Below, one piece after another: positions 4,167 to 16,456 of a stretch of 64,000 bases of DNA. Below the pieces are notes generated by a model that saw only the letters and a list, made by a program, of their open reading frames with translations, did not search any database and had not been told where the DNA came from. Position numbers and translations under genes: made by a program. Source of the stretch: a bacterium (GTDB lineage: Bacteria > Patescibacteriota > Patescibacteriia > JACQRZ01); contig JAHFJA010000001.1 in NCBI GenBank assembly GCA_023246095.1, positions 1,062 to 65,061 of the forward strand. The letters are read 5' to 3'. Every line of letters starts with the position of its first letter. Position 1 is the stretch's first letter.

Positions 4167-4431
4167 TGTTTTTCCTCCTTTAGAAAAAACTTATAATTGT
4201 AAAGGTGCCTCTCTTGAGATGGTCTCCAAAAAAACTTTTGGTTCACCTTTTTCTTGTTTGGCAGTTTGCCATATTTATACCGTTTTGTCAAGCATACTCT
4301 CGACAGTCGATAGATGACCGTTTGTTGCATCATATACCTCGCTATCGCAATAATAATACTTTGAAGTGGCGTTGGATCCCAAAACAAAAAACACGCCTGA
4401 AGGGCGCATTTCTGCTAGCATCTGCTCACAA

Positions 4432-4576
4432 CTGTCTCTCTTGAACAAAATCCGAACTTTTTTTCAAGAGAATCCAGACGCGGAATTTTGATGCGCCTCC
4501 ATTATCCGCCAACTGGCGGAGACGGACGCCGGATTGGTACATGGCGGAATTCCCCCCACACCCCCCTTCCGCCATG
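4432..4576. repeat. IR-A: left copy of a 145-bp perfect inverted repeat; partner at 9917..10061.
   Basis: Reverse complement of 4432-4576 is identical to 9917-10061. Internal palindromes catggcggaa...ttccgccatg and ccgccagttggcgg; G6TGTG6 tract. Confidence 0.9.
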
Positions 4577-4642
4577 TTTTTGTATTACTAACAATATGCT
4601 TTTTGAGGAGAGTTTGCAAGAAGGCTATCAATGTTATTAAAA

Positions 4643-5260
4643 CTATCTACGCCATGGTGCAGGTGTCACGTCAAAAGTTGTCTGAGAGACGCCTCTTGGA
4701 AATTTCTCCATCATCGTTTTAAATATCACATCAAACACCTTTTCTGCCACATGTAAATTTAAATCATTAAAAATTTTATGTTCATCTTTATCAAGTTTAT
4801 TTTTTGTATTTTGAATATGAAGACGATTACGAACATCCCGCAAAAATTCTAGTGCTGTATAAAAATTTTTTGGTTGTTCAAAAAAATTATATTTCCTAGC
4901 TGTCGCTATGTAATGTTCAAATTTCTCAAGCTTCTTTTTTCGAAACTCAGCAACTTCTGTTTTGGTGACATTTGGTAGTTTGTCAGAAACATGTTCTTGA
5001 ATACGATCTACAAAATCATCCAGGAAGCACTCAATAATGGCGACAATCACCAGCATTATTGGTTTATTGAAATGCATCTTCCTTAAAGGAGGACTATCAT
5101 TTTTTGCATCATACAGCGTCCACAATATTTCCATATTATACAAAATGTTATCACCCTTTTTGAAGCTCCAAATAAAAGTAAAAATTGCTTTTGAAATTAA
5201 ATCTCGCTCTGATGATGTCATAAAATAAGTTAATGTGGTATAGAATACTATGTTTCTCAA
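4643..5260 (-). CDS. Hypothetical alpha-helical protein, possible HEPN-like (Rx6H: RDVRNRLH). Cargo of the IR-bounded element.
   Basis: 205-aa ORF, AT-rich. Motif LRDVRNRLHIQN. No other recognisable domain. Confidence 0.35.
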   Translation of the reverse strand: MRNIVFYTTLTYFMTSSERDLISKAIFTFIWSFKKGDNILYNMEILWTLYDAKNDSPPLRKMHFNKPIMLVIVAIIECFLDDFVDRIQEHVSDKLPNVTKTEVAEFRKKKLEKFEHYIATARKYNFFEQPKNFYTALEFLRDVRNRLHIQNTKNKLDKDEHKIFNDLNLHVAEKVFDVIFKTMMEKFPRGVSQTTFDVTPAPWRR

Positions 5261-5400
5261 GGCTTATCACACACATTATAAAGAAACTATCACGACAGGA
5301 ATAGACCACGGGTCTCTATATTGCTTATATACAACCGTGACAACTAAACTCTAGTTTAACCCTTATTTTATAAGCTTTTTTAACATTGCCTCTATTGCCT

Positions 5401-6882
5401 CTAAAAACCGAGTGTGTAATAAATATTGGTTGATGCACCGTGAGGTTTTATTACACCAGACTCTTTGAGATCCCGAAGGTCTTTATTTATGGTCGCTCTT
5501 GGTGTCTCCTTTAGAATCTTTTGACAATCACTAACTGTAAGCTTTCCCTTGATAAGCAATGAGTCAATAATTTTTATCTGACGTTCATTAATATTATGAT
5601 GTTTTGAACCAAGTAGTATTGCTTCAAAACTATTTACAGAATTTCTAAACAACGGCTCGGGTAAACCCCAATCAGACATTTTCTTTATGACTACATCAAT
5701 ACCACGACCATATTCTTCCAAATATCGCATATCTTTCAACCTCGCAGCAACCATGGAATTGCGACTGAATTGTGCTTCCTTAAGATTATCTACCGTGACA
5801 CCTGGAGGAAGTGAGCCAGGATTGGCAATTTCTATGCGATCTTGAAATACACGAATTTGTGTATATGTTTCAATAATTTTGTAATCACGATGAATAATAG
5901 CATTCGCTATTAACTCTCTAATAGCTTCTTCTGGGTATTCATACCGTTCAACACGTTTAGTACCCTCGATCACTGCATTTTTAGCAATATTTTTTAAAAC
6001 AAATTTATATACTTCATCAATTTGTGAATCAAGCGTACCAGCTATGTCTACTGCATCAATAATTTTAGAAGATGGATCACTACCAGCATAACGAATGCAA
6101 CGAATTACATAACGATCATATGGGCTTTTGTTTTGAGGTATCGCTTTTGCAAAAATCAGATAACCTCCGATAGTTGGTTTATATTGACCATCAAAAGATG
6201 CAATAATATTTAAATTTTCAAGCGTCACATCATCCACGGTAGGTGTAGCACCTCTTTGTATCTGTTCTTCACTTTGCTCGAGAAGTTTAATCACTTTTTC
6301 CTTTGCAATGTCTTCCTTGTTTGTATTCCGTGCCTCTGATAAATCAAATTGGAATTCCTTTGAAGTTGCAACGTAGGTCCTAAATTCATTATCAGTAATT
6401 TTCCTACTAGTATTACCCTCTCGAATATATGCACCATTAGGGAGCCCAATAGGACTAAAGTAACAGGGCATATAGTCTTTTGGACACTCAGGCACAAAGA
6501 CAGCTAATATAGTGACTCCTTCATACTCAATAACATGATATTCTGGCCGTAAAACAAAGCTCATTTTATCATTGAAATACTGCGTTAATTTCGTCTGCAT
6601 TTGGTCTAAATTCGTACAGCCAGTGACTTCATTTTTTTCTTGGTTCACTCCAAACACGACAAGACCCCCACCCCGACGATTAGCAAAAGCAGAGATAGTC
6701 CTCCAAATATCATTTGGAATATTATTTTTTGCGGTCTTAAACTCAAGGTCAGACAACTCACTTGATATTTCTAAACCGTATTTTATTTTTTTAAGTATTT
6801 CATCGTTTGTCATAAAACTATTTTTTGAACGTGCTATTTTTAGATGACCAATCCGTACACACAGAATGACCCGATCTGCCAA
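5401..6882 (-). CDS. AlbA_2 (Schlafen-like divergent AAA) + HATPase_c_4 + C-terminal wHTH protein; putative ATP-binding transcriptional regulator, RecG-C-terminal-like.
   Basis: N-terminus LEFKTAKNNIPNDIWRTISAFANRRGGGLVVFGV is typical of AlbA_2. Central GHKL-like region. C-terminal HTH (KLTVSDCQKILKETPRATINKDLRDLKESGVI). Confidence 0.65.
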   Translation of the reverse strand: MADRVILCVRIGHLKIARSKNSFMTNDEILKKIKYGLEISSELSDLEFKTAKNNIPNDIWRTISAFANRRGGGLVVFGVNQEKNEVTGCTNLDQMQTKLTQYFNDKMSFVLRPEYHVIEYEGVTILAVFVPECPKDYMPCYFSPIGLPNGAYIREGNTSRKITDNEFRTYVATSKEFQFDLSEARNTNKEDIAKEKVIKLLEQSEEQIQRGATPTVDDVTLENLNIIASFDGQYKPTIGGYLIFAKAIPQNKSPYDRYVIRCIRYAGSDPSSKIIDAVDIAGTLDSQIDEVYKFVLKNIAKNAVIEGTKRVERYEYPEEAIRELIANAIIHRDYKIIETYTQIRVFQDRIEIANPGSLPPGVTVDNLKEAQFSRNSMVAARLKDMRYLEEYGRGIDVVIKKMSDWGLPEPLFRNSVNSFEAILLGSKHHNINERQIKIIDSLLIKGKLTVSDCQKILKETPRATINKDLRDLKESGVIKPHGASTNIYYTLGF

Positions 6883-6884
6883 GA

Positions 6885-7493
6885 TTATTTATCATTGATA
6901 CTTTCTGACAGATCATGCATCAATATTACCAAATCTGCTACAGTTATAAAGGAAGGAAATACCTCCTTACCAGCTAGTGTATTGTCAATTGTCTTATTGC
7001 GCCAAATGACCGGGGCATCAAGACAATGTTCAAAATAAAAACTATTATTATGAGCCGATCCATTTCGAATATGCTTAACAAATCTAAAAATGTCCTCTTT
7101 GACCCAATATTTGTGATACTTGGAATACAAAGTTATATCAGATATACCCACCATCATCATTCTTGCCTGCCAATTTATTAATGGTGATAAGTCTGCCTGA
7201 ACCCTAGCACCAGCAAATTTAACGCTTGCCCTTACGTTAAAATCCTGAATTGCACTTTGTGCGGCATATTTTATGACAGGCAATCCATTAAAATCGACAG
7301 AAAGTCCGAGTTCTAACATCCCTCTCTCTTTTTTATGGTGGTCAACTAAAACCCTCTGAAAATCTTTCATAACCATCATATTCATGCCAACAAAAAAGAA
7401 TCTAAAATTTTCTTCAATTGGTCTGAATATCTCATGAATAAATATTTCTTTATCTTGTATACCTGACATAATTTTTACAAATACTCTACGCAT
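6885..7493 (-). CDS. Hypothetical protein with a HEPN-like Rx4H motif (HIRNGSAHNN).
   Basis: 202 aa. R-N-x3-H motif with a polar residue after Arg, as in HEPN RNases. Immediately downstream of the AlbA_2 gene, with a 3-bp gap. Confidence 0.4.
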   Translation of the reverse strand: MRRVFVKIMSGIQDKEIFIHEIFRPIEENFRFFFVGMNMMVMKDFQRVLVDHHKKERGMLELGLSVDFNGLPVIKYAAQSAIQDFNVRASVKFAGARVQADLSPLINWQARMMMVGISDITLYSKYHKYWVKEDIFRFVKHIRNGSAHNNSFYFEHCLDAPVIWRNKTIDNTLAGKEVFPSFITVADLVILMHDLSESINDK

Positions 7494-7515
7494 TGTCTCT
7501 CACCATTTATCGATG

Positions 7516-9780
7516 TTACAAATTCCCTGCTGGAATCTTTTCCAAGTCCTTATTTGTAATACCGATACTGTAATTACGCATTAACTTATAGGCTTCATCC
7601 CCATTTTTCAGATAATAACGCAATCCAGTTTTTGGATAGACGTACCATGCCTCTCCTTTTGATTGAACTTGAAGCAATATCTTCCCTTTTACATCTTTCA
7701 TTGTTGTTGGATAAGCTTTCTTTTCACCTACTTGTGGTAATCGTTTCAAGTCAGTATTCGTAATACCAACCCCAAATTTTCGCATCATGCTATAAGCAGA
7801 CGCACCATCTTTCATATAGTATCTTTTCCCATCTATCGGATTCACATACCATGCTTCACCTTTGGATTCGGTCTGAAGTAAAATATATCCTTTAAGTTTA
7901 TTTTGTAAGTTTTTATCAATGGATTTATTGTTTGTGCTAGCCGATGGATTATTTTGTCCTGACCCGTTACTATCGGCAATAAATAGATTCAATGAATTAA
8001 GAGTATTTAAATCAATATTTTCTAACACAGATGACACTCGTGAATAAGAATTACTACTGCCAGAGTCATAGACATAGCTAGATCCATTGATCCAGCTATT
8101 TACTTTATTTACAGACAAAAGATATCCCATAGAGTTAAGGCTACCTTTTACCACTGCCGATGGTATACCAATAAATGTGCCATTTTTAAGATAAGCACCG
8201 CCACCCGAATTGCCGTGTTCGATGATTGCAGTAGTTTTCAAGTAATTGCCATCAACACCACTAAAATCACCACTAGTATATGTTATTTTCGTACCAAACT
8301 TTGCTGGGTACCCATACGTTGTAATCTTGTCACCCAAACCAAGGTTACTACTGTTACTATTTCCAAGACTAATATAAGTAAGAATCCTATTTGTAGGATT
8401 TCTCAATTTTAATATTGCGACGTCTGTATCGCTTGATACTTTGTAAATATCGGCAATTTGTCTATCACCAAAGTACGGTTCATCATTGTAATTATCAATA
8501 AAACCAACCAAACATCCTGGAGTACCATCAACAACATGTTTATTTGTCAAAATTGTTCCGCTTGAATCAATAACCGTACCAGAACCCTGGCTTGCCATGG
8601 TTTTATCAATAGGACAAATAAGTTTGACAGTAGCTCTGATGATTGTACTTTGATTGGCAATTCCCAAATCTTCGGTCGGCGTTTGTAATTTTGGTTGATT
8701 TGGTGCAACACAGTATTGGGATGTTGGAGGCGATGCCGTTTCAACAGACGAACAATCAAATGTTTTAGTACAGCTTCTTGTTTGTATTCCTTGAGGTGAG
8801 CATGATCCCCAATCACCACATTGCCATGTATCTACAGAACAAGATGGCGCAGTATATGGCGGGACATAAGTGCAAGATTGAGTCGAAGAAGGCGAAGGTG
8901 TACCCCCTACACAATTTGATATTTTATTACAAGATCTGTTCTGAATTCCATTAGCGGCACAAGATCCCCAGCTACTACAAGACCAATCGTCTGTCGTACA
9001 GGTTAAAATAGGAGTACAACTTTGACTTAAAATTGGATTTCCACCTATACAACTAGACGGGGACGATGACACAACGGTGCGAGACTGTTGCCCCTGTGGA
9101 GAACATGCCCCCCAATCAGAATATTTAAAAGATCCGCACGCTGGTGCTAACACATTTACATCAAATGAAGGACTTTGGTAACCATTATTTTGATTACTAC
9201 TTCCGTAATATACCTTTAACGTGTTTGTTCCTATCTTAAAATAACTATTAGCCGTTGATAAAACAATCCTCGCATCCGACCAACTGGCTACAGGTAAAGC
9301 ACTTGCGTATCCTCCTACACTTAAATTTACCACTTTCCCTGCTTCAGAATTGTTAAATCCTTCTCCGTTTATTTCCAATTGATCACCAAGTGTGAGTTGT
9401 GAAGGATAAGAAGTGATCTTAAGTGAAACAAGTAGCTGGCTGGTTCCATAGACAACTCCGTCACTAGCAATAACCTTTATGTTGGCTAAACCCTCAACTT
9501 GAGGCGGGACAGTTACCGAGATAGAATCTTGTCCCCATGACGTGATTGTCGCAGGAGTATCATTTAATAAAACACTTCCTTGTGTTGTTCCAAATCCGTT
9601 TGGACATCCATTGTTATTAACTACATTAATATTAAAATCAGAGATTCTGCCAGTACCCCATGTTATATTATTTTCCGTGATAAACTGACATGGGGCTGCC
9701 ATTGCGGTTTTTGTAGCCACAGAACCAAGAGATATAAATATGATTCCGACAGCAAATAACAGAAAAAAATATTTTTTCAT
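7516..9780 (-). CDS. Secreted trypsin-like (S1) serine protease with three thrombospondin-type-1-like Cys repeats and two C-terminal ~55-aa tandem repeats.
   Basis: Signal peptide MKKYFFLLFAVGIIFISLGSVATKTAMA. Repeats W(G/S)xCSPQGxQxRxC x3. Catalytic triad contexts TNKHVV, DTDVAIL, GNSGGG. C-terminal repeats GEAWYVxPxxGxRYYxKxG...GITNxDLxxxP x2. Confidence 0.7.
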   Translation of the reverse strand: MKKYFFLLFAVGIIFISLGSVATKTAMAAPCQFITENNITWGTGRISDFNINVVNNNGCPNGFGTTQGSVLLNDTPATITSWGQDSISVTVPPQVEGLANIKVIASDGVVYGTSQLLVSLKITSYPSQLTLGDQLEINGEGFNNSEAGKVVNLSVGGYASALPVASWSDARIVLSTANSYFKIGTNTLKVYYGSSNQNNGYQSPSFDVNVLAPACGSFKYSDWGACSPQGQQSRTVVSSSPSSCIGGNPILSQSCTPILTCTTDDWSCSSWGSCAANGIQNRSCNKISNCVGGTPSPSSTQSCTYVPPYTAPSCSVDTWQCGDWGSCSPQGIQTRSCTKTFDCSSVETASPPTSQYCVAPNQPKLQTPTEDLGIANQSTIIRATVKLICPIDKTMASQGSGTVIDSSGTILTNKHVVDGTPGCLVGFIDNYNDEPYFGDRQIADIYKVSSDTDVAILKLRNPTNRILTYISLGNSNSSNLGLGDKITTYGYPAKFGTKITYTSGDFSGVDGNYLKTTAIIEHGNSGGGAYLKNGTFIGIPSAVVKGSLNSMGYLLSVNKVNSWINGSSYVYDSGSSNSYSRVSSVLENIDLNTLNSLNLFIADSNGSGQNNPSASTNNKSIDKNLQNKLKGYILLQTESKGEAWYVNPIDGKRYYMKDGASAYSMMRKFGVGITNTDLKRLPQVGEKKAYPTTMKDVKGKILLQVQSKGEAWYVYPKTGLRYYLKNGDEAYKLMRNYSIGITNKDLEKIPAGNL

Positions 9781-9916
9781 AATGTTATTAATATAGTTTA
9801 CTTGCTATTAATATGACACAAAAGATTGTCCAAGACAATAGCTCTACAATAGATTAGTGTGCCCGTTTCTTTCTTGCAAACTCTGCTCAAAAAGCATATC
9901 GTTAGTAATACAAAGA

Positions 9917-10061
9917 CATGGCGGAAGGGGGGTGTGGGGGGAATTCCGCCATGTACCAATCCGGCGTCCGTCTCCGCCAGTTGGCGGATAATGGAGGCGC
10001 ATCAAAATTCCGCGTCTGGATTCTCTTGAAAAAAAGTTCGGATTTTGTTCAAGAGAGACAG
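9917..10061. repeat. IR-A': right copy of the 145-bp perfect inverted repeat.
   Basis: Exact reverse complement of 4432-4576. Confidence 0.9.
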
Positions 10062-10185
10062 GTGTGTGTATATGCCCCCTCTTTCGCCCCCTTTGGGGGC
10101 TTGAGAGTTTTGAAACCCAATTGAACCCAACCCCATTTTTCCCCTGAATTCAAAAACAAAATCCCATGGTTTAGTAAAATCCACT
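10062..10185. repeat. IR-C: left copy of a ~124-bp near-perfect inverted repeat flanking the recombinase gene; partner at 11631..11753.
   Basis: Reverse complement matches 11631-11753 with about 3 mismatches or indels. Contains ccccctctttcgccccctttggggg. Confidence 0.85.
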
Positions 10186-10193
10186 TTCCGCCT

Positions 10194-11813
10194 ATGGCGG
10201 AAATATCCAAAGCGACACACAATATAATTCATATAGCCACCTCTAATATGAATACGTTCTTTCTCTACGCTCGCAAATCAACGGATGAACCTGACAGGCA
10301 GATCCTTTCCATTGAGGCACAAATAACCGAACTTCGTGAATTTGCCCAGCGAGAACATCTTGATATCGTGGATACCTTTATTGAATCGCAAACAGCCAAA
10401 GAACCAGGGCGCCCCATATTCAACAAAATGCTTGATCGTGTAGAGAAAGGCGGTGCTAATGGTATTTTGGCGTGGCATCCTGATAGACTTGCTCGCAACA
10501 GTGTGGACGGAGGGCGTGTAATCTATCTCACCGACACGAGAAAGCTTGTCGACCTCAAATTCCCCACCTTTTGGTTTGATGCCACGCCACAGGGCAAATT
10601 CATGCTCAATATCGCATTTGGACAGTCAAAGTACTATGTAGATAATCTCTCGGAGAATGTAAAACGAGGATTACGGCAAAAAGTACGGCGAGGCGAACAG
10701 GTCGGACGAGCACCGATGGGATATCTCAATGATCTTGTGACAAAGAAGATGATACCTGATCCCCAACACTGTCGCCTCATCCGAAAAGTATTTGAGCTGT
10801 ATGCGACAGGCAATTATTCTCTCAAATCCCTCCGAGAGATTATCTTTGACGAAGGATTGATGAGTGGAACAGGCAAAAAGCTCTCTATTTCCATGATACA
10901 AAAAATCCTCACCAATCCATTTTATTATGGTGCGTTTCTCTTTAACGGAGAGCTTTTTGCGGGTACTCATGAACCATGCGTGTCAAAGAAACTGTTTGGG
11001 CAAGTACAAGCAATCCTGACAAGCAAGACAAATCCGAAAAAACGAGGCGAGAAGCAGTATCCACTTCGAGGTTTATTTATCTGTGGCGAGTGCGGATGCA
11101 GTATCACATCAGAAACACACAAAGGACATGACTACTATCGTTGTACCAAGAAAAAGGATGTAAAATGCTCGCAAAAATATATTCGCGAAGAGCTTCTCGC
11201 CCAACAACTATCAGAGATGATACAATCAGTTTCTTTACCCACAGATTGGGCAGAAAATATGCTTGAACAACTGGAAACAGACGAAACAAGTACCGCCCAA
11301 TCTGATGTCCTTTTCGCTCAAACCATTAAGGATCAGATAAAAATGTGTGAAACAAAACTGGATACCCTGCTGGACGCGCACCTTGAGCAGGTCATAACAA
11401 GGGATGAATATACCAGCAAGAAAAACAAGGTGATGTCTCAAAAAATGGATTTGGAGCAAACACTAAATGAATTTGAGCGAAAGGGCAACGCATGGCTCGA
11501 ACGCACTCGTGCGTTCATAAATACCGCTAATCAAGCGGAAAAAGTCGCTTTGGATGAAAATTTGTTTGCAAAAAAAGATTTTCTAAAAAAACACGGCTCG
11601 AACCGCCTCCTCGCCGACAAAACGGCTCGGGTGGATTTTACCAAACCATGGGATTTTGTTTTTGAATTCAGGGAAAAAATGGGGTTGGGTTCAATTGGGT
11701 TTCAAAACTCTCAAGCCCCCAAAGGGGGCGAAAGAGGGGGCATATACACACACCTGCGGGACATGGACTCGAACCATGATACCATCCTCCAGAGGGATGT
11801 GTCCTACCATTAG
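10194..11813 (+). CDS. Large serine recombinase (resolvase/invertase catalytic domain + recombinase domain + zinc ribbon).
   Basis: YARKSTDEPDRQILSIEAQ catalytic Ser motif. LAWHPDRLARN. GRAPMGY recombinase domain. CGECGC...YYRC zinc ribbon. The ORF reads without a stop through IR-C' into the tRNA, so the true C-terminus is uncertain. The true start may be the internal MNTFFLYARKST. Confidence 0.85.
   Translation: MAEISKATHNIIHIATSNMNTFFLYARKSTDEPDRQILSIEAQITELREFAQREHLDIVDTFIESQTAKEPGRPIFNKMLDRVEKGGANGILAWHPDRLARNSVDGGRVIYLTDTRKLVDLKFPTFWFDATPQGKFMLNIAFGQSKYYVDNLSENVKRGLRQKVRRGEQVGRAPMGYLNDLVTKKMIPDPQHCRLIRKVFELYATGNYSLKSLREIIFDEGLMSGTGKKLSISMIQKILTNPFYYGAFLFNGELFAGTHEPCVSKKLFGQVQAILTSKTNPKKRGEKQYPLRGLFICGECGCSITSETHKGHDYYRCTKKKDVKCSQKYIREELLAQQLSEMIQSVSLPTDWAENMLEQLETDETSTAQSDVLFAQTIKDQIKMCETKLDTLLDAHLEQVITRDEYTSKKNKVMSQKMDLEQTLNEFERKGNAWLERTRAFINTANQAEKVALDENLFAKKDFLKKHGSNRLLADKTARVDFTKPWDFVFEFREKMGLGSIGFQNSQAPKGGERGGIYTHLRDMDSNHDTILQRDVSYH
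11631..11753. repeat. IR-C': right copy of the ~124-bp inverted repeat; ends exactly at the 3' end of tRNA-Gln.
   Basis: Reverse complement of 10062-10185. The terminal cacacacc abuts ctgcggg (tRNA 3' acceptor strand). Confidence 0.85.
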
Positions 11814-11824
11814 ACGATCCCGCA
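11754..11824 (-). tRNA. tRNA-Gln (anticodon CUG).
   Basis: Minus strand: UGCGGGA acceptor pairs with UCCCGCA. Anticodon stem CAUCC/GGAUG with loop CUCUGGA. T-arm CAUGG-UUCGAGU-CCAUG. Discriminator G; no encoded CCA. Confidence 0.85.
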
Positions 11825-11847
11825 GTTCTAAGTACATGCGATAATTT

Positions 11848-13939: not shown

Positions 13940-16456
13940 CTAAAGAACGGTTTGCTTTGCACGATCAAGTATTTCTTGCTCCACGATAGTCCTATCCCGA
14001 CCATGTTTGAGACGAGATAATTGACGAATTGCCTCTGCAACGTCAAGACTACCATGAGCAGGAGCAAACGTGCGCATGTTAAACGGGCGCGCAGCAGTAC
14101 CATTGATAAGCAATCTGACATACGCATGAGTTCGTTCAATGTTTATCACGTCAAATTGATTGAACACGGGCGCCATCTGTTTTGAGACCAGCTCAGCATC
14201 ATCTACACCAACGCGAAAGTTCACAATCGTACCCACGTTTCCAAAGACTGCATCTCGTACTTTCGTATCCCCTGCTTTTGGTGTCAACTGTGCAATATAT
14301 TGGTGACCCATGGTCAGACATAACCGATATTTTCGCGCCTCAGAAAGAATCACTGCGATACTGTCGGTAATAAAGTTTTGGAACTCGTCGATATAGAGAA
14401 AGAAATCATGTCTCTCACTTTCTGGTATTTCACCGCGCGATAGTGCAGCCATGGTAATCTTACTCACCATGATGAGTCCCAACAAGTACGCATTCAAATC
14501 TCCCAATTTACCTTTACTCAATTTGACTAACAAAATCTTTTTCTCATCCATGAGTTCACGAATATTGAATGCACTGTTTTGCTGACCTATAATAGGACGC
14601 ATGATGTCATTGGCAACAAACTGGTTCAACTTTGAAGTAATATACGGCACCATATTAGCCAGTGCTGCCTCTCCTCCCGCCTTTTGCGCCTCCTTAACCC
14701 AAAAATCATGTACGACCGGATTTTTACACTTGGAAAGTTTGTATTTACGAAACTCTTCATCGGCCAACACTTTTGAGACTTCCATCAACGTAGACCCGGA
14801 CTCTGGGTCTTCCATGATCAAAAGCAACGCATTTCGCAAATATTGTTCAAACATTGGACCACCCGTCGAACGCAAATCATACAACTTATCCAATATCATG
14901 ATAAATTCATTGATAACAAACGTTTTTTGTTCAGGAAATCGAGGATCAAATTCCAATAAGTTTAAACCCTTTGGTCGTTCGTAATCAGCCGGATCAAACA
15001 AAACAACATCATCAGCGCGTTCAGGAGGGATAGTGCTCAGGATGTGATCAATTGCTTCGCCGTGAGGATCAATGAAACAGCAACCTTCACCATTACGAAT
15101 ATCTTGAACGATCATATTTTGCATGAGCGTAGTCTTTCCCGATCCTGTCATACCAATCACATACATGTGACGCCTTCGATCATCCGCACGTATGTGGACA
15201 GGAGTAATAATGCCACGATAGAGGTTTTCTCCCAGCAAGACTCCTTCCGTCGGCATATTTTGTGGTGGGGGTGCGCTTCGTGATTTGAGCCATTCAATAT
15301 TCGGCGTTTCTGTGGTGCTCAAAGGCAAATGAAAGAGACTTGCCAATTCTTCCGCATTAAGAATGAATGACTGACGATTGTCAAAATGCCGATAAATTGA
15401 GTGTTGCACGACAGACGGTTTTTTCGCTCGCTTAATTTTAATTATGGCTACCCCTGATTCCGGCCCAGTATATTGAGCAAAGGCGTTGGTTACATTGTAT
15501 ACCTGCATATCCGCAAGAGCTTGCGTTTGTGCTGAGCCAATGACACGAATATTGGTTTGAAAACCTGCCTTTGACCCTTTTTCCTCAACAGCTTTTACCA
15601 AATCCTGCTCGAGTGGAGACATACGATGCTCTGTGGGGCCGGATTTATCGCTGGATGACTTCAACGTATCCATAGTGGCCGATCCCGTCTTTTTTAAAAC
15701 TCCCCAAGCAAGATCACCCGCCGAGCCAATATTGGCAGCACTCATTGCTTTTTTTACCGTCTTGCCGTGCTGCATTTCCTTGGCAAACGCCTGTCCTTTT
15801 GATCTCCACGATGGCGGTGCGGTGCGTATCGTCATCTGAATCACAACACCTTGCCCCTGCGCTACTTGGCTCAACGCATTTGTTAGAGCATTTAATGGAT
15901 CGGAGTCCATTTTACGGTAGGTGCGTAAAGGAAAAATCCAATGTTTACTAAGTTGTAGTGCGGCTGCACTGACACCCCCATGAGGGAGAAAAATATTATA
16001 ATCAGCGGTCTCTTCAACATATGCTGACGGGTACTGAGCAAGTAATTGTTGTTCAAAAAAAGATTGAAGATAGTCGGGAACGATGACAAAAAACTTTATC
16101 AGTCCATCAATAGCAACTATTTCAAAAGTAATCTCATCTTCTCGTCCAAAAAAATATGCTTTCCATTTGTCACGGGGACGCAATGAGCCCAGTGAAAGAT
16201 ACAGCGATTCTGCAACTGCCACTACCTCTTTATATTCTCCTTTTCCCCCTTTTTCTTCCTCTTCTTCCCGCGACCCCTCTTTTGGCACTTTTATTTGAAG
16301 TATTTTTTTCTGTAAGGCATTGTGTTCGACATATCGTTGCGTGAGCACAGATCGGAGTACGGACAGCCCTAGCACTGCCACTAATGCGGCAACACCGCCC
16401 CACCATAAAACAGACAGAAGGATGTTACCCGCAATGAGGGAAATAATAATATCCAT
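13940..16456 (-). CDS. Membrane-anchored P-loop ATPase of the TraG/VirD4/TrwB (type IV coupling protein, FtsK/HerA superfamily)-like family.
   Basis: Two N-terminal TM helices. Walker A GMTGSGKTT. DPHGE. Walker B FFLYIDEFQNF. 838 aa. Confidence 0.6.
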   Translation of the reverse strand: MDIIISLIAGNILLSVLWWGGVAALVAVLGLSVLRSVLTQRYVEHNALQKKILQIKVPKEGSREEEEEKGGKGEYKEVVAVAESLYLSLGSLRPRDKWKAYFFGREDEITFEIVAIDGLIKFFVIVPDYLQSFFEQQLLAQYPSAYVEETADYNIFLPHGGVSAAALQLSKHWIFPLRTYRKMDSDPLNALTNALSQVAQGQGVVIQMTIRTAPPSWRSKGQAFAKEMQHGKTVKKAMSAANIGSAGDLAWGVLKKTGSATMDTLKSSSDKSGPTEHRMSPLEQDLVKAVEEKGSKAGFQTNIRVIGSAQTQALADMQVYNVTNAFAQYTGPESGVAIIKIKRAKKPSVVQHSIYRHFDNRQSFILNAEELASLFHLPLSTTETPNIEWLKSRSAPPPQNMPTEGVLLGENLYRGIITPVHIRADDRRRHMYVIGMTGSGKTTLMQNMIVQDIRNGEGCCFIDPHGEAIDHILSTIPPERADDVVLFDPADYERPKGLNLLEFDPRFPEQKTFVINEFIMILDKLYDLRSTGGPMFEQYLRNALLLIMEDPESGSTLMEVSKVLADEEFRKYKLSKCKNPVVHDFWVKEAQKAGGEAALANMVPYITSKLNQFVANDIMRPIIGQQNSAFNIRELMDEKKILLVKLSKGKLGDLNAYLLGLIMVSKITMAALSRGEIPESERHDFFLYIDEFQNFITDSIAVILSEARKYRLCLTMGHQYIAQLTPKAGDTKVRDAVFGNVGTIVNFRVGVDDAELVSKQMAPVFNQFDVINIERTHAYVRLLINGTAARPFNMRTFAPAHGSLDVAEAIRQLSRLKHGRDRTIVEQEILDRAKQTVL

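What the first reader, a model, noticed from the sequence alone, without database searches (positions are those of the whole stretch)
4432..11824. Nested inverted-repeat element with a large serine recombinase abutting tRNA-Gln
A 145-bp perfect inverted repeat (4432-4576 / 9917-10061) encloses a 5.3-kb AT-rich cargo. Immediately adjacent, a second ~124-bp near-perfect inverted repeat (10062-10185 / 11631-11753) encloses only a large serine recombinase gene. The outer end of the second repeat coincides with the 3' nucleotide of tRNA-Gln.

Perfect identity over 145 bp implies recent homogenisation or activity. Inverted, not direct, repeats around both cargo and recombinase suggest DNA inversion (an invertase-like switch) as much as integration and excision. 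The architecture is unusual for a tRNA-integrated island, which normally has direct att repeats. I found no duplication of the tRNA 3' end near 4432.
Basis: partly seen in the sequence, partly recalled or inferred. Interest (0 to 1): 0.8.

Follow-up and report, generated by a model that had tools for sequence, protein, structure and literature searches.

The report
tRNA-inserted recombinase island with spare attP
The repeats mark a 7.3-kb mobile island inserted at the end of a tRNA-Gln gene by a large serine integrase, and it carries a second, flipped copy of its own attachment site; the same layout recurs in many, mostly candidate-phyla-radiation, bacteria and I found no description of it.

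Summary
Both inverted repeats are real, and they are not transposon ends. Window 4432-11756 is one integrated element.

- **Junctions:** attL is host flank|CTG|A at 4432. attR is C'|CTG|tRNA-Gln at 11754-11756. An intact attP (C'|CTG|A) lies between them in inverted orientation at 10059-10061.
- **What the repeats are:** IR-C is the last ~40 codons of the integrase gene. IR-A begins with a conserved 19-codon tail of that gene plus its 3' region.
- **Effect on the gene:** in the window's arrangement, integration cuts the conserved tail off the integrase.
- **Recurrence:** the nested layout is seen in 39 of 43 related loci with enough flank, at 15 different tRNA species, and in the finished Kuenenia stuttgartiensis chromosome.
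- **Empty site:** a Kuenenia strain lacks exactly the whole A-cargo-A'-C-integrase-C' unit.
- **Cargo:** unrelated between close relatives and mostly restriction-modification or other defence genes.
- **Isomers:** alternative module orientations exist in related loci.

Inferred, not shown: the free form is a circle with two inverted attP sites, like the 2-micron plasmid. The spare copy may let the integrase regain its tail. This is a new variant of a serine-integrase island.

The parts
4387..4413 (-). Host intrinsic terminator. In the reconstructed empty site it would lie about 20 nt downstream of tRNA-Gln. It is the host (B) side of attL.
   Evidence: Terminator scan. It sits immediately left of the attL core.
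4432..4434 (+). attL core CTG: host flank | core | P' arm.
   Evidence: Junction comparison. The same pattern is seen in 18+ related loci.
4432..4622 (+). IR-A left arm, which is the P' arm of attP.
- 4432-4491 encodes the orphaned natural C-terminus of the integrase, LSLLNKIRTFFQENPDAEF*.
- 4506-4519 and 4540-4576 are hairpins.
4643..9780 (-). Cargo module, four genes:
- 205 aa, unknown
- 493 aa, Schlafen AlbA_2 + HATPase_c_4 + wHTH
- 202 aa, unknown
- 754 aa, TIG + trypsin-like protease

GC is 0.36.
9871..10061 (-). IR-A right arm (A'). Read on the minus strand it is the tail coding region plus the 3' region of the integrase gene.
10059..10061 (-). Core of the internal, inverted, intact attP (P|CTG|P' on the minus strand).
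10062..10184 (-). IR-C left arm: a spare inverted copy of the last ~40 codons of the integrase gene (the P arm). With A' it forms the open frame 10002-10232 on the minus strand.
10185..10247 (+). Upstream region of the integrase gene, with hairpin TTTCCGCCTATGGCGGAAA (10185-10203). Equivalent hairpins and AAAGCGAT repeats occur in relatives.
10248..11813 (+). Large serine integrase, 521 aa as integrated. The last 19 residues are translated from the antisense strand of tRNA-Gln.
   Evidence: Fold of a 78%-identical relative.
11631..11753 (+). IR-C right arm: the true 3' end of the integrase gene (the P arm).
11754..11756 (+). attR core CTG, which is the complement of the last three nucleotides (71-73) of tRNA-Gln.
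11754..11825 (-). tRNA-Gln(CTG), intact. It is the B' half of the target site.

Best explanation
Window 4432-11756 is a single mobile element placed at the 3' end of tRNA-Gln by its own large serine integrase.

**The attachment site.** The element's attP overlaps the 3' end of the integrase gene.
- The P arm is the last ~40 codons of the gene (C').
- The core is CTG, which mimics the last three bases of the tRNA.
- The P' arm is A. It starts with a conserved 19-codon C-terminal tail, followed by the gene's 3' region.

**The duplicate.** The element carries this ~330-bp segment twice, in inverted orientation. One copy was split by integration into attL (4432) and attR (11754-11756). The other copy is intact at 9871-10184, just upstream of the integrase gene. 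The two 'nested' inverted repeats are therefore one inverted duplication seen in the integrated state.

**Inferred free form.** I infer a circle in which the two inverted attP copies separate an integrase module from an exchangeable cargo module, laid out like the yeast 2-micron plasmid. Either attP can recombine with a tRNA end.
- Using the copy at the gene's 3' end gives the window's arrangement. The genes point outward and the integrase loses its conserved tail.
- Using the other copy gives the L105 arrangement, in which the tail is kept.
- Recombination between the arms flips modules, as in L106 and L109.

**Most speculative step.** The tail matters for activity. Integration through the 3' copy would then lock the element in place, and the spare copy would allow the full-length gene to be restored by inversion. 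That would substitute for a separate directionality factor.

**Shown:** repeats, junction cores, conservation of the layout, an empty site in a relative, alternative isomers, and protein-level selection on the tail.

**Inferred:** the circle, catalysis by this protein, use of both attP copies, and the lock.
For: **Junctions**
- The three junctions share a 3-10 bp core equal to the tRNA 3' end in 18+ loci. Host flanks are unrelated between loci.
- The TCGAAC motif sits 4-5 nt further from the core in P' than in the tRNA half-site. This matches the 5-bp rule for serine-integrase attP versus attB sites (PMC11722253).

**Conservation of the layout**
- IR-C is present in 39 of 43 loci with enough flank.
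- The right arm abuts a minus-strand tRNA in 41 loci, covering 15 tRNA species.
- An abutting IR-A is present in 21 of 34 loci with enough upstream sequence.
- The same layout is in the finished Kuenenia chromosome.

**Empty site**
- Contig L084 joins L083 position 11467 to 2531 with an 8-bp overlap. It lacks exactly the whole unit.
- In the window, the tRNA's terminator lies just left of attL.

**The tail**
- It is conserved in 39 distinct sequences.
- Codon-position entropy is 0.94 / 0.45 / 1.15 for positions 1 / 2 / 3.
- AlphaFold2 predicts it as a confident helix.

**Isomers**
- L105 has both modules flipped. Its C arms are only 95% identical, so I judged the linkage reliable.
- L106 and L109 have the integrase and cargo co-directional.
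- L009, L019 and L024 have the tRNA upstream of the integrase.

**Bias and selection**
- 41 loci have the integrase reading into the tRNA, against 3 flipped.
- 13 of 174 homologues carry the natural tail.
- The integrase is under purifying selection: 47 synonymous versus 8 nonsynonymous codon differences between L066 and L079. 67 of 80 ORFs are intact.

**No conserved directionality-factor candidate.** Small elements carry a single unrelated cargo gene.

**Protein.** It has the fold of SPbeta, LI, Bxb1 and PhiC31 integrases, including a long helical hairpin inserted in the zinc-ribbon domain, as expected for the coiled-coil.
Against: - No circular form, excision junction or read-level heterogeneity was observed.
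- The window's own species has no empty-site contig.
- Canonical serine integrases recombine only attP with attB, so integrase-catalysed inversion (attP x attR or attP x attL) is not expected from known members.
- If both attP copies were used equally, isomers should be about 1:1. The 41:3 bias needs an extra assumption: the lock, selection, or preferential use of one site.
- If tail-less integrase were dead, the common isomer would be a dead end unless inversion is frequent enough. Yet flipped loci are rare, and one of them (L009) is a pseudogene.
- Alternative isomers come from short-read assemblies. Some could be wrong paths through identical arms.
- The distal part of IR-A travels with the cargo, not with the integrase. 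The lock idea only partly explains this.
Confidence: 0.6

Rival explanations
1. The duplication is a neutral relic. An ancestral element suffered an inverted duplication of its attP region. Gene conversion keeps the arms identical, and the spare copy has no role in the life cycle.
For: Arm identity of 97-100% in most loci, with a tail down to 81%, is what gene conversion between close inverted repeats gives. No function has been shown.
Against: - The layout persists across integrases only 48-65% identical, in hundreds of small streamlined genomes and at 15 tRNA species.
- Useless 300-bp repeats that permit inversion should be lost.
- A distant tRNA-adjacent serine integrase in L023 has no such repeat.
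Confidence: 0.15
2. It is primarily an invertible switch. The recombinase flips the cargo and/or its own gene to vary expression, and the tRNA position is incidental or ancient.
For: - The repeats are inverted.
- The recombinase gene lies inside one invertible segment, as hin does (my own knowledge).
- Several orientations are seen in relatives.
Against: - A precise empty site exists in a relative.
- One 90%-identity integrase lineage sits at many different tRNAs.
- Host flanks are unrelated next to 95%-identical integrase modules.
- Orientations are strongly biased at 41:3 rather than mixed.
- The protein is a 521-aa integrase-type enzyme, not a ~190-aa invertase.
Confidence: 0.1
3. Two independent repeat-bounded elements lie side by side: an IS-like unit (C-integrase-C') and a passenger unit (A-cargo-A'). 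Each inserted separately next to the tRNA.
For: - Cargo, together with the distal part of its arms, swaps independently of the integrase module.
- Many 1.6-2.0 kb contigs hold only C-integrase-C'.
Against: - C' and A form one continuous reading frame, with a tail under protein-level selection.
- The empty site lacks both units at once.
- The short contigs are what assemblers produce at identical inverted repeats.
- No locus shows the integrase unit without a P' arm beside it; even L028 keeps one.
Confidence: 0.07
4. The long inverted repeat exists so that a single-stranded copy of the element, taken up by competence or conjugation, can fold into a double-stranded attP. This would resemble CTX phage or integron attC sites.
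For: - The repeats are perfect and far longer than a ~50-bp attP.
- Module orientation is fixed in most loci.
- The hosts are thought to rely on DNA uptake (my own knowledge).
Against: - Serine recombinases cut both strands. Recombining a hairpin stem with the chromosome would leave hairpin-capped breaks, not the observed structure (my reasoning).
- L105 shows the product expected from a double-stranded circle using the other attP.
Confidence: 0.05
5. Assembly artefact, such as a collapsed or mis-joined repeat.
For: Other assemblies of this genome break at the IR-A arms.
Against: The same layout is found in dozens of genomes from many laboratories and assemblers, and in a finished chromosome.
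Confidence: 0.02

Closest known systems
Large serine integrase elements (PhiC31, Bxb1, SPbeta SprA, Listeria A118/LI, SCCmec Ccr, Anabaena XisF)
   Same: - Same domain set and fold, including a helical hairpin at the coiled-coil position.
- Short cores, with no long direct repeats.
- attP and attB half-sites carry the same motif at a ~5-bp different spacing.
   Different: - Only 13-18% identical to solved members, and below every NCBIfam cut-off.
- attP lies inside the integrase's own coding end.
- The target is the 3' end of many different tRNAs, with only one conserved half-site.
- A second, inverted attP is carried.
- No directionality factor is evident.
SSV1-type integrases of archaeal viruses (my own knowledge)
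   Same: attP lies within the integrase gene, so integration into a tRNA gene partitions the gene.
   Different: Those are tyrosine recombinases, and the gene is split in the middle. Here a serine integrase loses only its last 19 codons, and a spare copy of that end is kept.
Yeast 2-micron plasmid, Flp/FRT (my own knowledge)
   Same: The inferred circle has two unique segments separated by a pair of long inverted repeats. Each repeat contains a recombination site, the recombinase gene lies in one segment, and flipped isomers exist.
   Different: Flp is a tyrosine recombinase and the plasmid replicates autonomously. No replication function is seen here, and the circle itself has not been observed.
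Hin/Gin/Cin/Pin DNA invertases (my own knowledge)
   Same: They are serine recombinases, and the hin gene lies inside its own invertible segment.
   Different: They are small enzymes that use an enhancer and 26-34-bp sites. They do not integrate and do not target tRNAs.
Engineered cassette exchange with two inverted PhiC31 attP sites, such as MiMIC (my own knowledge)
   Same: A cargo bounded by inverted sites of a serine integrase cannot be deleted by its own sites but can be exchanged. Cargo turnover is rapid here.
   Different: That system is man-made. Integrase-mediated exchange has not been shown here, and homologous recombination in the conserved arms would explain the swaps equally well.
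tRNA-targeting cargo-shuttling islands such as tycheposons (10.1101/2020.12.28.424599, listed; not read)
   Same: Small islands at tRNA ends that carry variable cargo in streamlined genomes.
   Different: The recombinase class of those elements was not checked here. I know of no internal inverted attachment site reported for them.

Membership tests
Large serine recombinase / serine integrase | N-terminal resolvase catalytic domain with the catalytic serine | tested here: met
   PF00239, E = 4e-23. The motif YARKSTDE, with S11, is invariant in 34- and 52-sequence alignments.
Large serine recombinase / serine integrase | Recombinase domain plus zinc-ribbon domain, with an inserted coiled-coil | tested here: met
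   PF07508 and PF13408 match. The AlphaFold2 model of the 78%-identical P0002 has a long helical hairpin, residues 333-436, between zinc-ribbon strands. Best fold matches are the SPbeta, LI, Bxb1 and PhiC31 integrases.
Large serine recombinase / serine integrase | Short crossover core; attP and attB half-sites carry the DBD2 motif at a 5-bp different spacing | tested here: met
   Cores are 3-10 bp. TCGAAC lies at +13..+19 in the tRNA half and at +17..+23 in P'. The rule is as stated in PMC11722253.
Large serine recombinase / serine integrase | Unidirectional attP x attB reaction, reversed by a directionality factor | not testable with these tools
   No conserved small gene accompanies the integrase. 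Biochemistry is needed.
tRNA-integrated genomic island | Precise presence/absence polymorphism at the tRNA 3' end | tested here: met
   Met for a family member: Kuenenia L083 versus the empty site L084. Not found for the window's own species. There the only support is the tRNA terminator stranded left of attL.
tRNA-integrated genomic island | The tRNA stays intact after insertion | tested here: met
   tRNA-Gln scores 58 bits over the full model. The core supplies nucleotides 71-73.
Hin/Gin-type DNA invertase switch | Small (~190 aa) serine recombinase with a C-terminal HTH | tested here: not met
   The protein is 521 aa with integrase-type domains.
Hin/Gin-type DNA invertase switch | Both orientations coexist in one population | not testable with these tools
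   Only between-genome variation is seen. No reads are available.
IS/transposon with terminal inverted repeats (including IS607 and TnpX-type serine transposases) | The inverted repeats are the element's ends, and insertion occurs at many unrelated targets | tested here: not met
   The ends are attL and attR with a tRNA-derived core. One arm of each inverted repeat is internal. The IS607 model scores 22.8 bits against a cut-off of 110.
2-micron-like plasmid | Autonomous circular replicon with Flp-type tyrosine recombinase | tested here: not met
   The enzyme is a serine recombinase. No replication gene is seen in the small elements. The circle has not been observed.

The most novel reading that the evidence does not exclude
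[quoted passage not shown] The result would be a serine integrase that locks itself without a separate directionality factor. The inverted spare attP would serve as the reset device, by inversion, and as a natural cassette-exchange platform for defence genes.
Probability: 0.2. Interest if true: 0.85.

Novelty: new variant of a known kind. Interest (0 to 1): 0.7.

Why it matters
- **Directionality.** Serine integrases are major genome-engineering tools, and control of their direction is an active structural question. This family hints at control without a directionality factor: attP sits inside the enzyme's own coding end, one half-site (any tRNA T-arm/acceptor end) does most of the recognition, and an inverted spare attP is built in. 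It also provides ready-made natural attP/attB pairs to test.
- **Gene flow.** The family appears to be a main vehicle for restriction-modification and other defence genes in candidate-phyla-radiation bacteria. More than 586 of the species-representative genomes carry a relative, and a protein search found more than 7,900 related sequences. Few mobile elements are characterised in these hosts.
- **Assembly.** Identical inverted arms are a likely cause of many of the contig ends seen at these elements in these genomes.

Tried and rejected
- **Two independent repeat-bounded transposons.** Rejected. The reading frame runs continuously from C' into A, and the empty site lacks both units.
- **Conserved tail as only a DNA-binding-site constraint.** Rejected. 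Variability follows the codon-position pattern 2 < 1 < 3, and conservation extends to 'ENPxAEF-stop', beyond a 25-bp half-site.
- **tmRNA as target in L021, L025, L027 and L028.** Not supported. L025 and L028 are tRNA genes with group I introns. L021 and L027 gave no Rfam hit.
- **Prophage origin.** Only 2 close relatives among 2.9 million viral contigs.
- **Known RNA family for the A-arm hairpin.** None in Rfam.
- **Sigma-70 promoters around the internal attP.** Nothing above shuffles.
- **Conserved cargo gene as a directionality factor.** None found. The recurrent ~70-aa HTH proteins look like restriction-modification controller proteins and are absent from the window.
- **Single-strand dumbbell model.** Worked through on paper and set aside, because cleavage of both strands would cap the chromosome with hairpins.
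- **Empty site for the window's own species.** Exact look-ups of both flanking proteins found only contigs that end at the element.
- **Literature.** Four full-text searches found no description of this layout. This is absence of evidence within that library only.
Full report
**1. Observation**

Both inverted repeats exist at the stated places.
- IR-A has arms 4418-4622 and 9871-10075 (205 nt, 97%). About 146 bp from 4432 are perfect.
- IR-C has arms 10059-10184 and 11631-11756 (126 nt, two mismatches).
- 48-mers from each repeat occur nowhere else in the 64-kb window, and none are expected by chance.
- tRNA-Gln(CTG) lies at 11754-11825 on the minus strand.
- The gene between the IR-C arms is a large serine recombinase with Resolvase, Recombinase and Zn_ribbon_recom domains.
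- The cargo has GC 0.36, against 0.40-0.47 around it.

**2. What the repeats are**

The recombinase ORF (10248-11813) does not stop before IR-C. It runs through the right arm and on into the antisense strand of the tRNA. The left arm, read on the minus strand, is open in the same frame. It continues into A' and ends LSLLNKIRTFFQENPDAEF*. C' followed by A is therefore one continuous piece of gene, and the A'-C block at 9871-10184 is an inverted copy of it.

The three junctions share only CTG:
- ...CACAA|CTG|TCTCTC at 4432
- ...CACAC|CTG|TCTCTC at 10061, on the minus strand
- ...CACAC|CTG|CGGGAC (tRNA) at 11754-11756

This is the pattern of attL (B-core-P'), attP (P-core-P') and attR (P-core-B'). 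A minus-strand intrinsic terminator sits just left of attL (4413-4387). That is where the tRNA's own terminator would lie if the 7.3 kb were removed.

**3. Relatives**

The protein has more than 7,900 homologues at about 50-78% identity, mostly from Patescibacteria (CPR) genomes. Many lie on 1.6-2.0 kb contigs. A scan of one genome per species found more than 586 relatives, and I kept 80 loci.

Self-comparison of the 80 loci gave these counts:

| Feature | Count |
|---|---|
| IR-C detected | 63 of 80 loci |
| IR-C in loci with enough flank on both sides | 39 of 43 |
| Right arm ends within 12 bp of the 3' end of a minus-strand tRNA | 41 loci, 15 tRNA species |
| IR-A abuts the left IR-C arm, where at least 1.5 kb upstream is available | 21 of 34 (5 more with looser geometry) |
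| Median IR-C | 127 bp, 99.3% identity |
| Median IR-A | 184 bp, 99.7% identity |

Further points:
- Two apparent exceptions have tRNA genes interrupted by group I introns.
- Many contigs end at the arms, which is expected of identical inverted repeats.
- The layout is also present in the finished chromosome of Ca. Kuenenia stuttgartiensis CSTR1. There IR-A is 297 nt at 100%, IR-C is 126 nt at 99%, the target is tRNA-Asn, and the cargo is a type I restriction-modification system plus Abi.
- A distant serine integrase (32% identity) next to another tRNA in L023 has no such repeats.

**4. Junction logic across loci**

In each of 18 resolvable loci the three sites share a 3-10 bp core. The core is the reverse complement of the tRNA 3' end, for example TGGCGG or TTGGCTCCG.

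Information content of the four half-sites:

| Half-site | Information content |
|---|---|
| P' | 26 bits |
| tRNA half (B') | 20 bits |
| P plus core | 15 bits |
| Host B plus core | 8.6 bits, almost all from the core |

Recognition of the target therefore seems to rest on the tRNA half. The TCGAAC motif lies at +13..+19 in the tRNA half and at +17..+23 in P'. A 4-5 nt outward shift in attP is the rule described for serine integrases (PMC11722253).

**5. Empty site**

I rebuilt the Kuenenia attB from the outer flank of attL and the tRNA side of attR and searched metagenome contigs. One contig, L084, matches exactly. It aligns at 99.9% to both flanks of L083 and joins position 11467 to 2531 with an 8-bp overlap. 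It lacks exactly A-cargo-A'-C-integrase-C'. The whole nested structure is therefore gained or lost as one unit at the core.

For the window's own species I found only contigs that stop at the element.

**6. The tail**

The 19 residues encoded at the start of A are conserved as (L/R)xLx(E/K)(I/V)RTFFxENPxAEF-stop in 39 distinct sequences.
- Column entropy by codon position is 0.94 / 0.45 / 1.15. This is the signature of selection on a protein, not only on a DNA-binding site.
- In an AlphaFold2 model of a 78%-identical homologue with the natural tail, the tail is a helix with pLDDT about 85.
- In the window, and in more than 90% of homologues, integration has replaced this tail by tRNA-antisense residues. 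Only 13 of 174 full-length proteins keep it.
- Within one 90%-identity cluster the tails after the crossover differ. One lineage therefore sits at many tRNAs.

**7. Modules and cargo**

- L066 and L079 share 95% identity from about 45 bp inside A', through C, the integrase and C', to the tRNA. They share nothing in the distal A arms or most of the cargo, and their host flanks differ.
- The element is thus an integrase module plus an exchangeable cargo module that brings its own distal repeat.
- Cargo ORFs lie on the strand opposite the integrase in about 23 of 27 loci.
- 76 cargo proteins are dominated by type I, II and III restriction-modification enzymes, GmrSD, DpnI, AlwI, HNH and Schlafen/AlbA_2 proteins.
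- The integrase is under purifying selection: 47 synonymous versus 8 nonsynonymous codon differences between L066 and L079. 67 of 80 ORFs are intact.

**8. Isomers**

- **L105** has the same synteny as the window, with holB next to tRNA-Gln(CTG); the two holB proteins are 41% identical. Its order is tRNA | C | integrase | C' | A | cargo | A' | host. Both modules are flipped relative to the window. The junctions have the expected attR, attP and attL sequences and the natural tail is intact. Its C arms are only 95% identical, so I judged the linkage reliable.
- **L106 and L109** show the integrase and cargo co-directional. The L109 protein is found in three samples.
- **L009, L019 and L024** have the tRNA directly upstream of the integrase.
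- **L014** is a tandem array.

A circle with two inverted attP sites predicts the window form and the L105 form. Flipping one module relative to the other predicts the L106 and L109 form.

**9. Mechanism and its limits**

The att assignment, the single-unit insertion and the duplicated attP are well supported. The circular intermediate and use of both attP copies are inferred.

The 41:3 bias towards the tail-less arrangement needs a cause. I favour the idea that the tail matters, that integration through the 3' copy locks the element, and that the spare copy allows restoration by inversion. This is only a hypothesis. Selection on orientation, or preferential use of one site, would also explain the bias.

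Canonical serine integrases do not recombine attP with attR or attL. Inversion may therefore depend on host homologous recombination.

**10. Comparison and novelty**

- The enzyme is a bona fide large serine integrase by domains and fold.
- It is remote from characterised members: below all NCBIfam cut-offs and 13-18% identical to solved structures.
- attP inside the integrase gene recalls SSV1-type tyrosine integrases.
- The inferred circle recalls the 2-micron plasmid.
- Cargo bounded by inverted attP-bearing sites recalls engineered cassette exchange.
- These three comparisons rest on my own knowledge.
- Four literature searches found no description of this layout.
- I rate it a new variant of a known kind.

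Noticed in passing
window 4540-4576 and 9917-9953; also L023, L039, L043, L051, L057, L062, L079, L080: A conserved hairpin lies in the A arms. The inner part, GGCGGAA-TTCCCCCC(A/C)(A/C)ACCCCCC-TTCCGCC, is nearly invariant. The outer stem has 6 covarying pairs. A T-run follows it in the window but not in the other loci aligned, so it is probably not just a terminator. It travels with the cargo module and has no Rfam family.
   Followed up: partly
window 10185-10247; the same region upstream of the integrase gene in many loci: The upstream region is conserved across the family. It has GAGCCAATC..TTTT, then a GC-rich short-loop hairpin (TTCCGCC-NNN-GGCGGAA or TTCGCC-TTYG-GGCGAA), then two AAAGCGAT repeats just before the ATG. 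It could be a promoter or operator, or a 5' UTR structure.
   Followed up: partly
L025 2228-2426; L028 11508-11781: The target tRNA genes of these two elements carry group I introns, so ARAGORN missed them.
   Followed up: partly
L083 2377-2499: Immediately outside attL of the Kuenenia element is the 3' fragment of a tyrosine-integrase-like gene (…HTFRRSFATYLM…). This suggests an older island at the same tRNA-Asn.
   Followed up: no
L014 3-4732; L051 11341-11594; L012 2248-2430: These look like tandem or hybrid arrangements in which an integrase reads into the P' arm of a neighbouring element, or of a remnant. That implies that attR or attL of a resident element can be reused as a target.
   Followed up: partly
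window 13940-16456: An 838-aa VirD4/TraG-like coupling protein (with DUF8128 in the precomputed annotation) lies 2 kb from the element. It is flanked by unannotated genes and by DnaK/DnaJ/GrpE further on. No link to the element was examined.
   Followed up: no
window 5401-6882: The 493-aa cargo protein has Schlafen AlbA_2, HATPase_c_4 and a winged HTH. It matches PADLOC models of pAgo-associated and SIR2-PNTD proteins over part of its length. The four-gene cargo may be an undescribed defence operon that includes a secreted TIG/trypsin-like protease.
   Followed up: partly
window 4572 and about 9921 (contig ends in ENA ERZ27297709); window about 4461 and about 11795 (Logan SRR14366756): Independent assemblies of the same genome break at the IR-A arms and inside the tRNA. 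The cargo orientation in the window therefore rests on the NCBI assembly alone.
   Followed up: yes
P0012, P0015, P0016, P0025, P0060, P0065, P0077: These homologues are 865-911 aa long and look like two integrase copies fused in one ORF: a complete copy followed by a second copy starting at the AFGQSKY motif. They may be read-through across tandem or nested elements.
   Followed up: no
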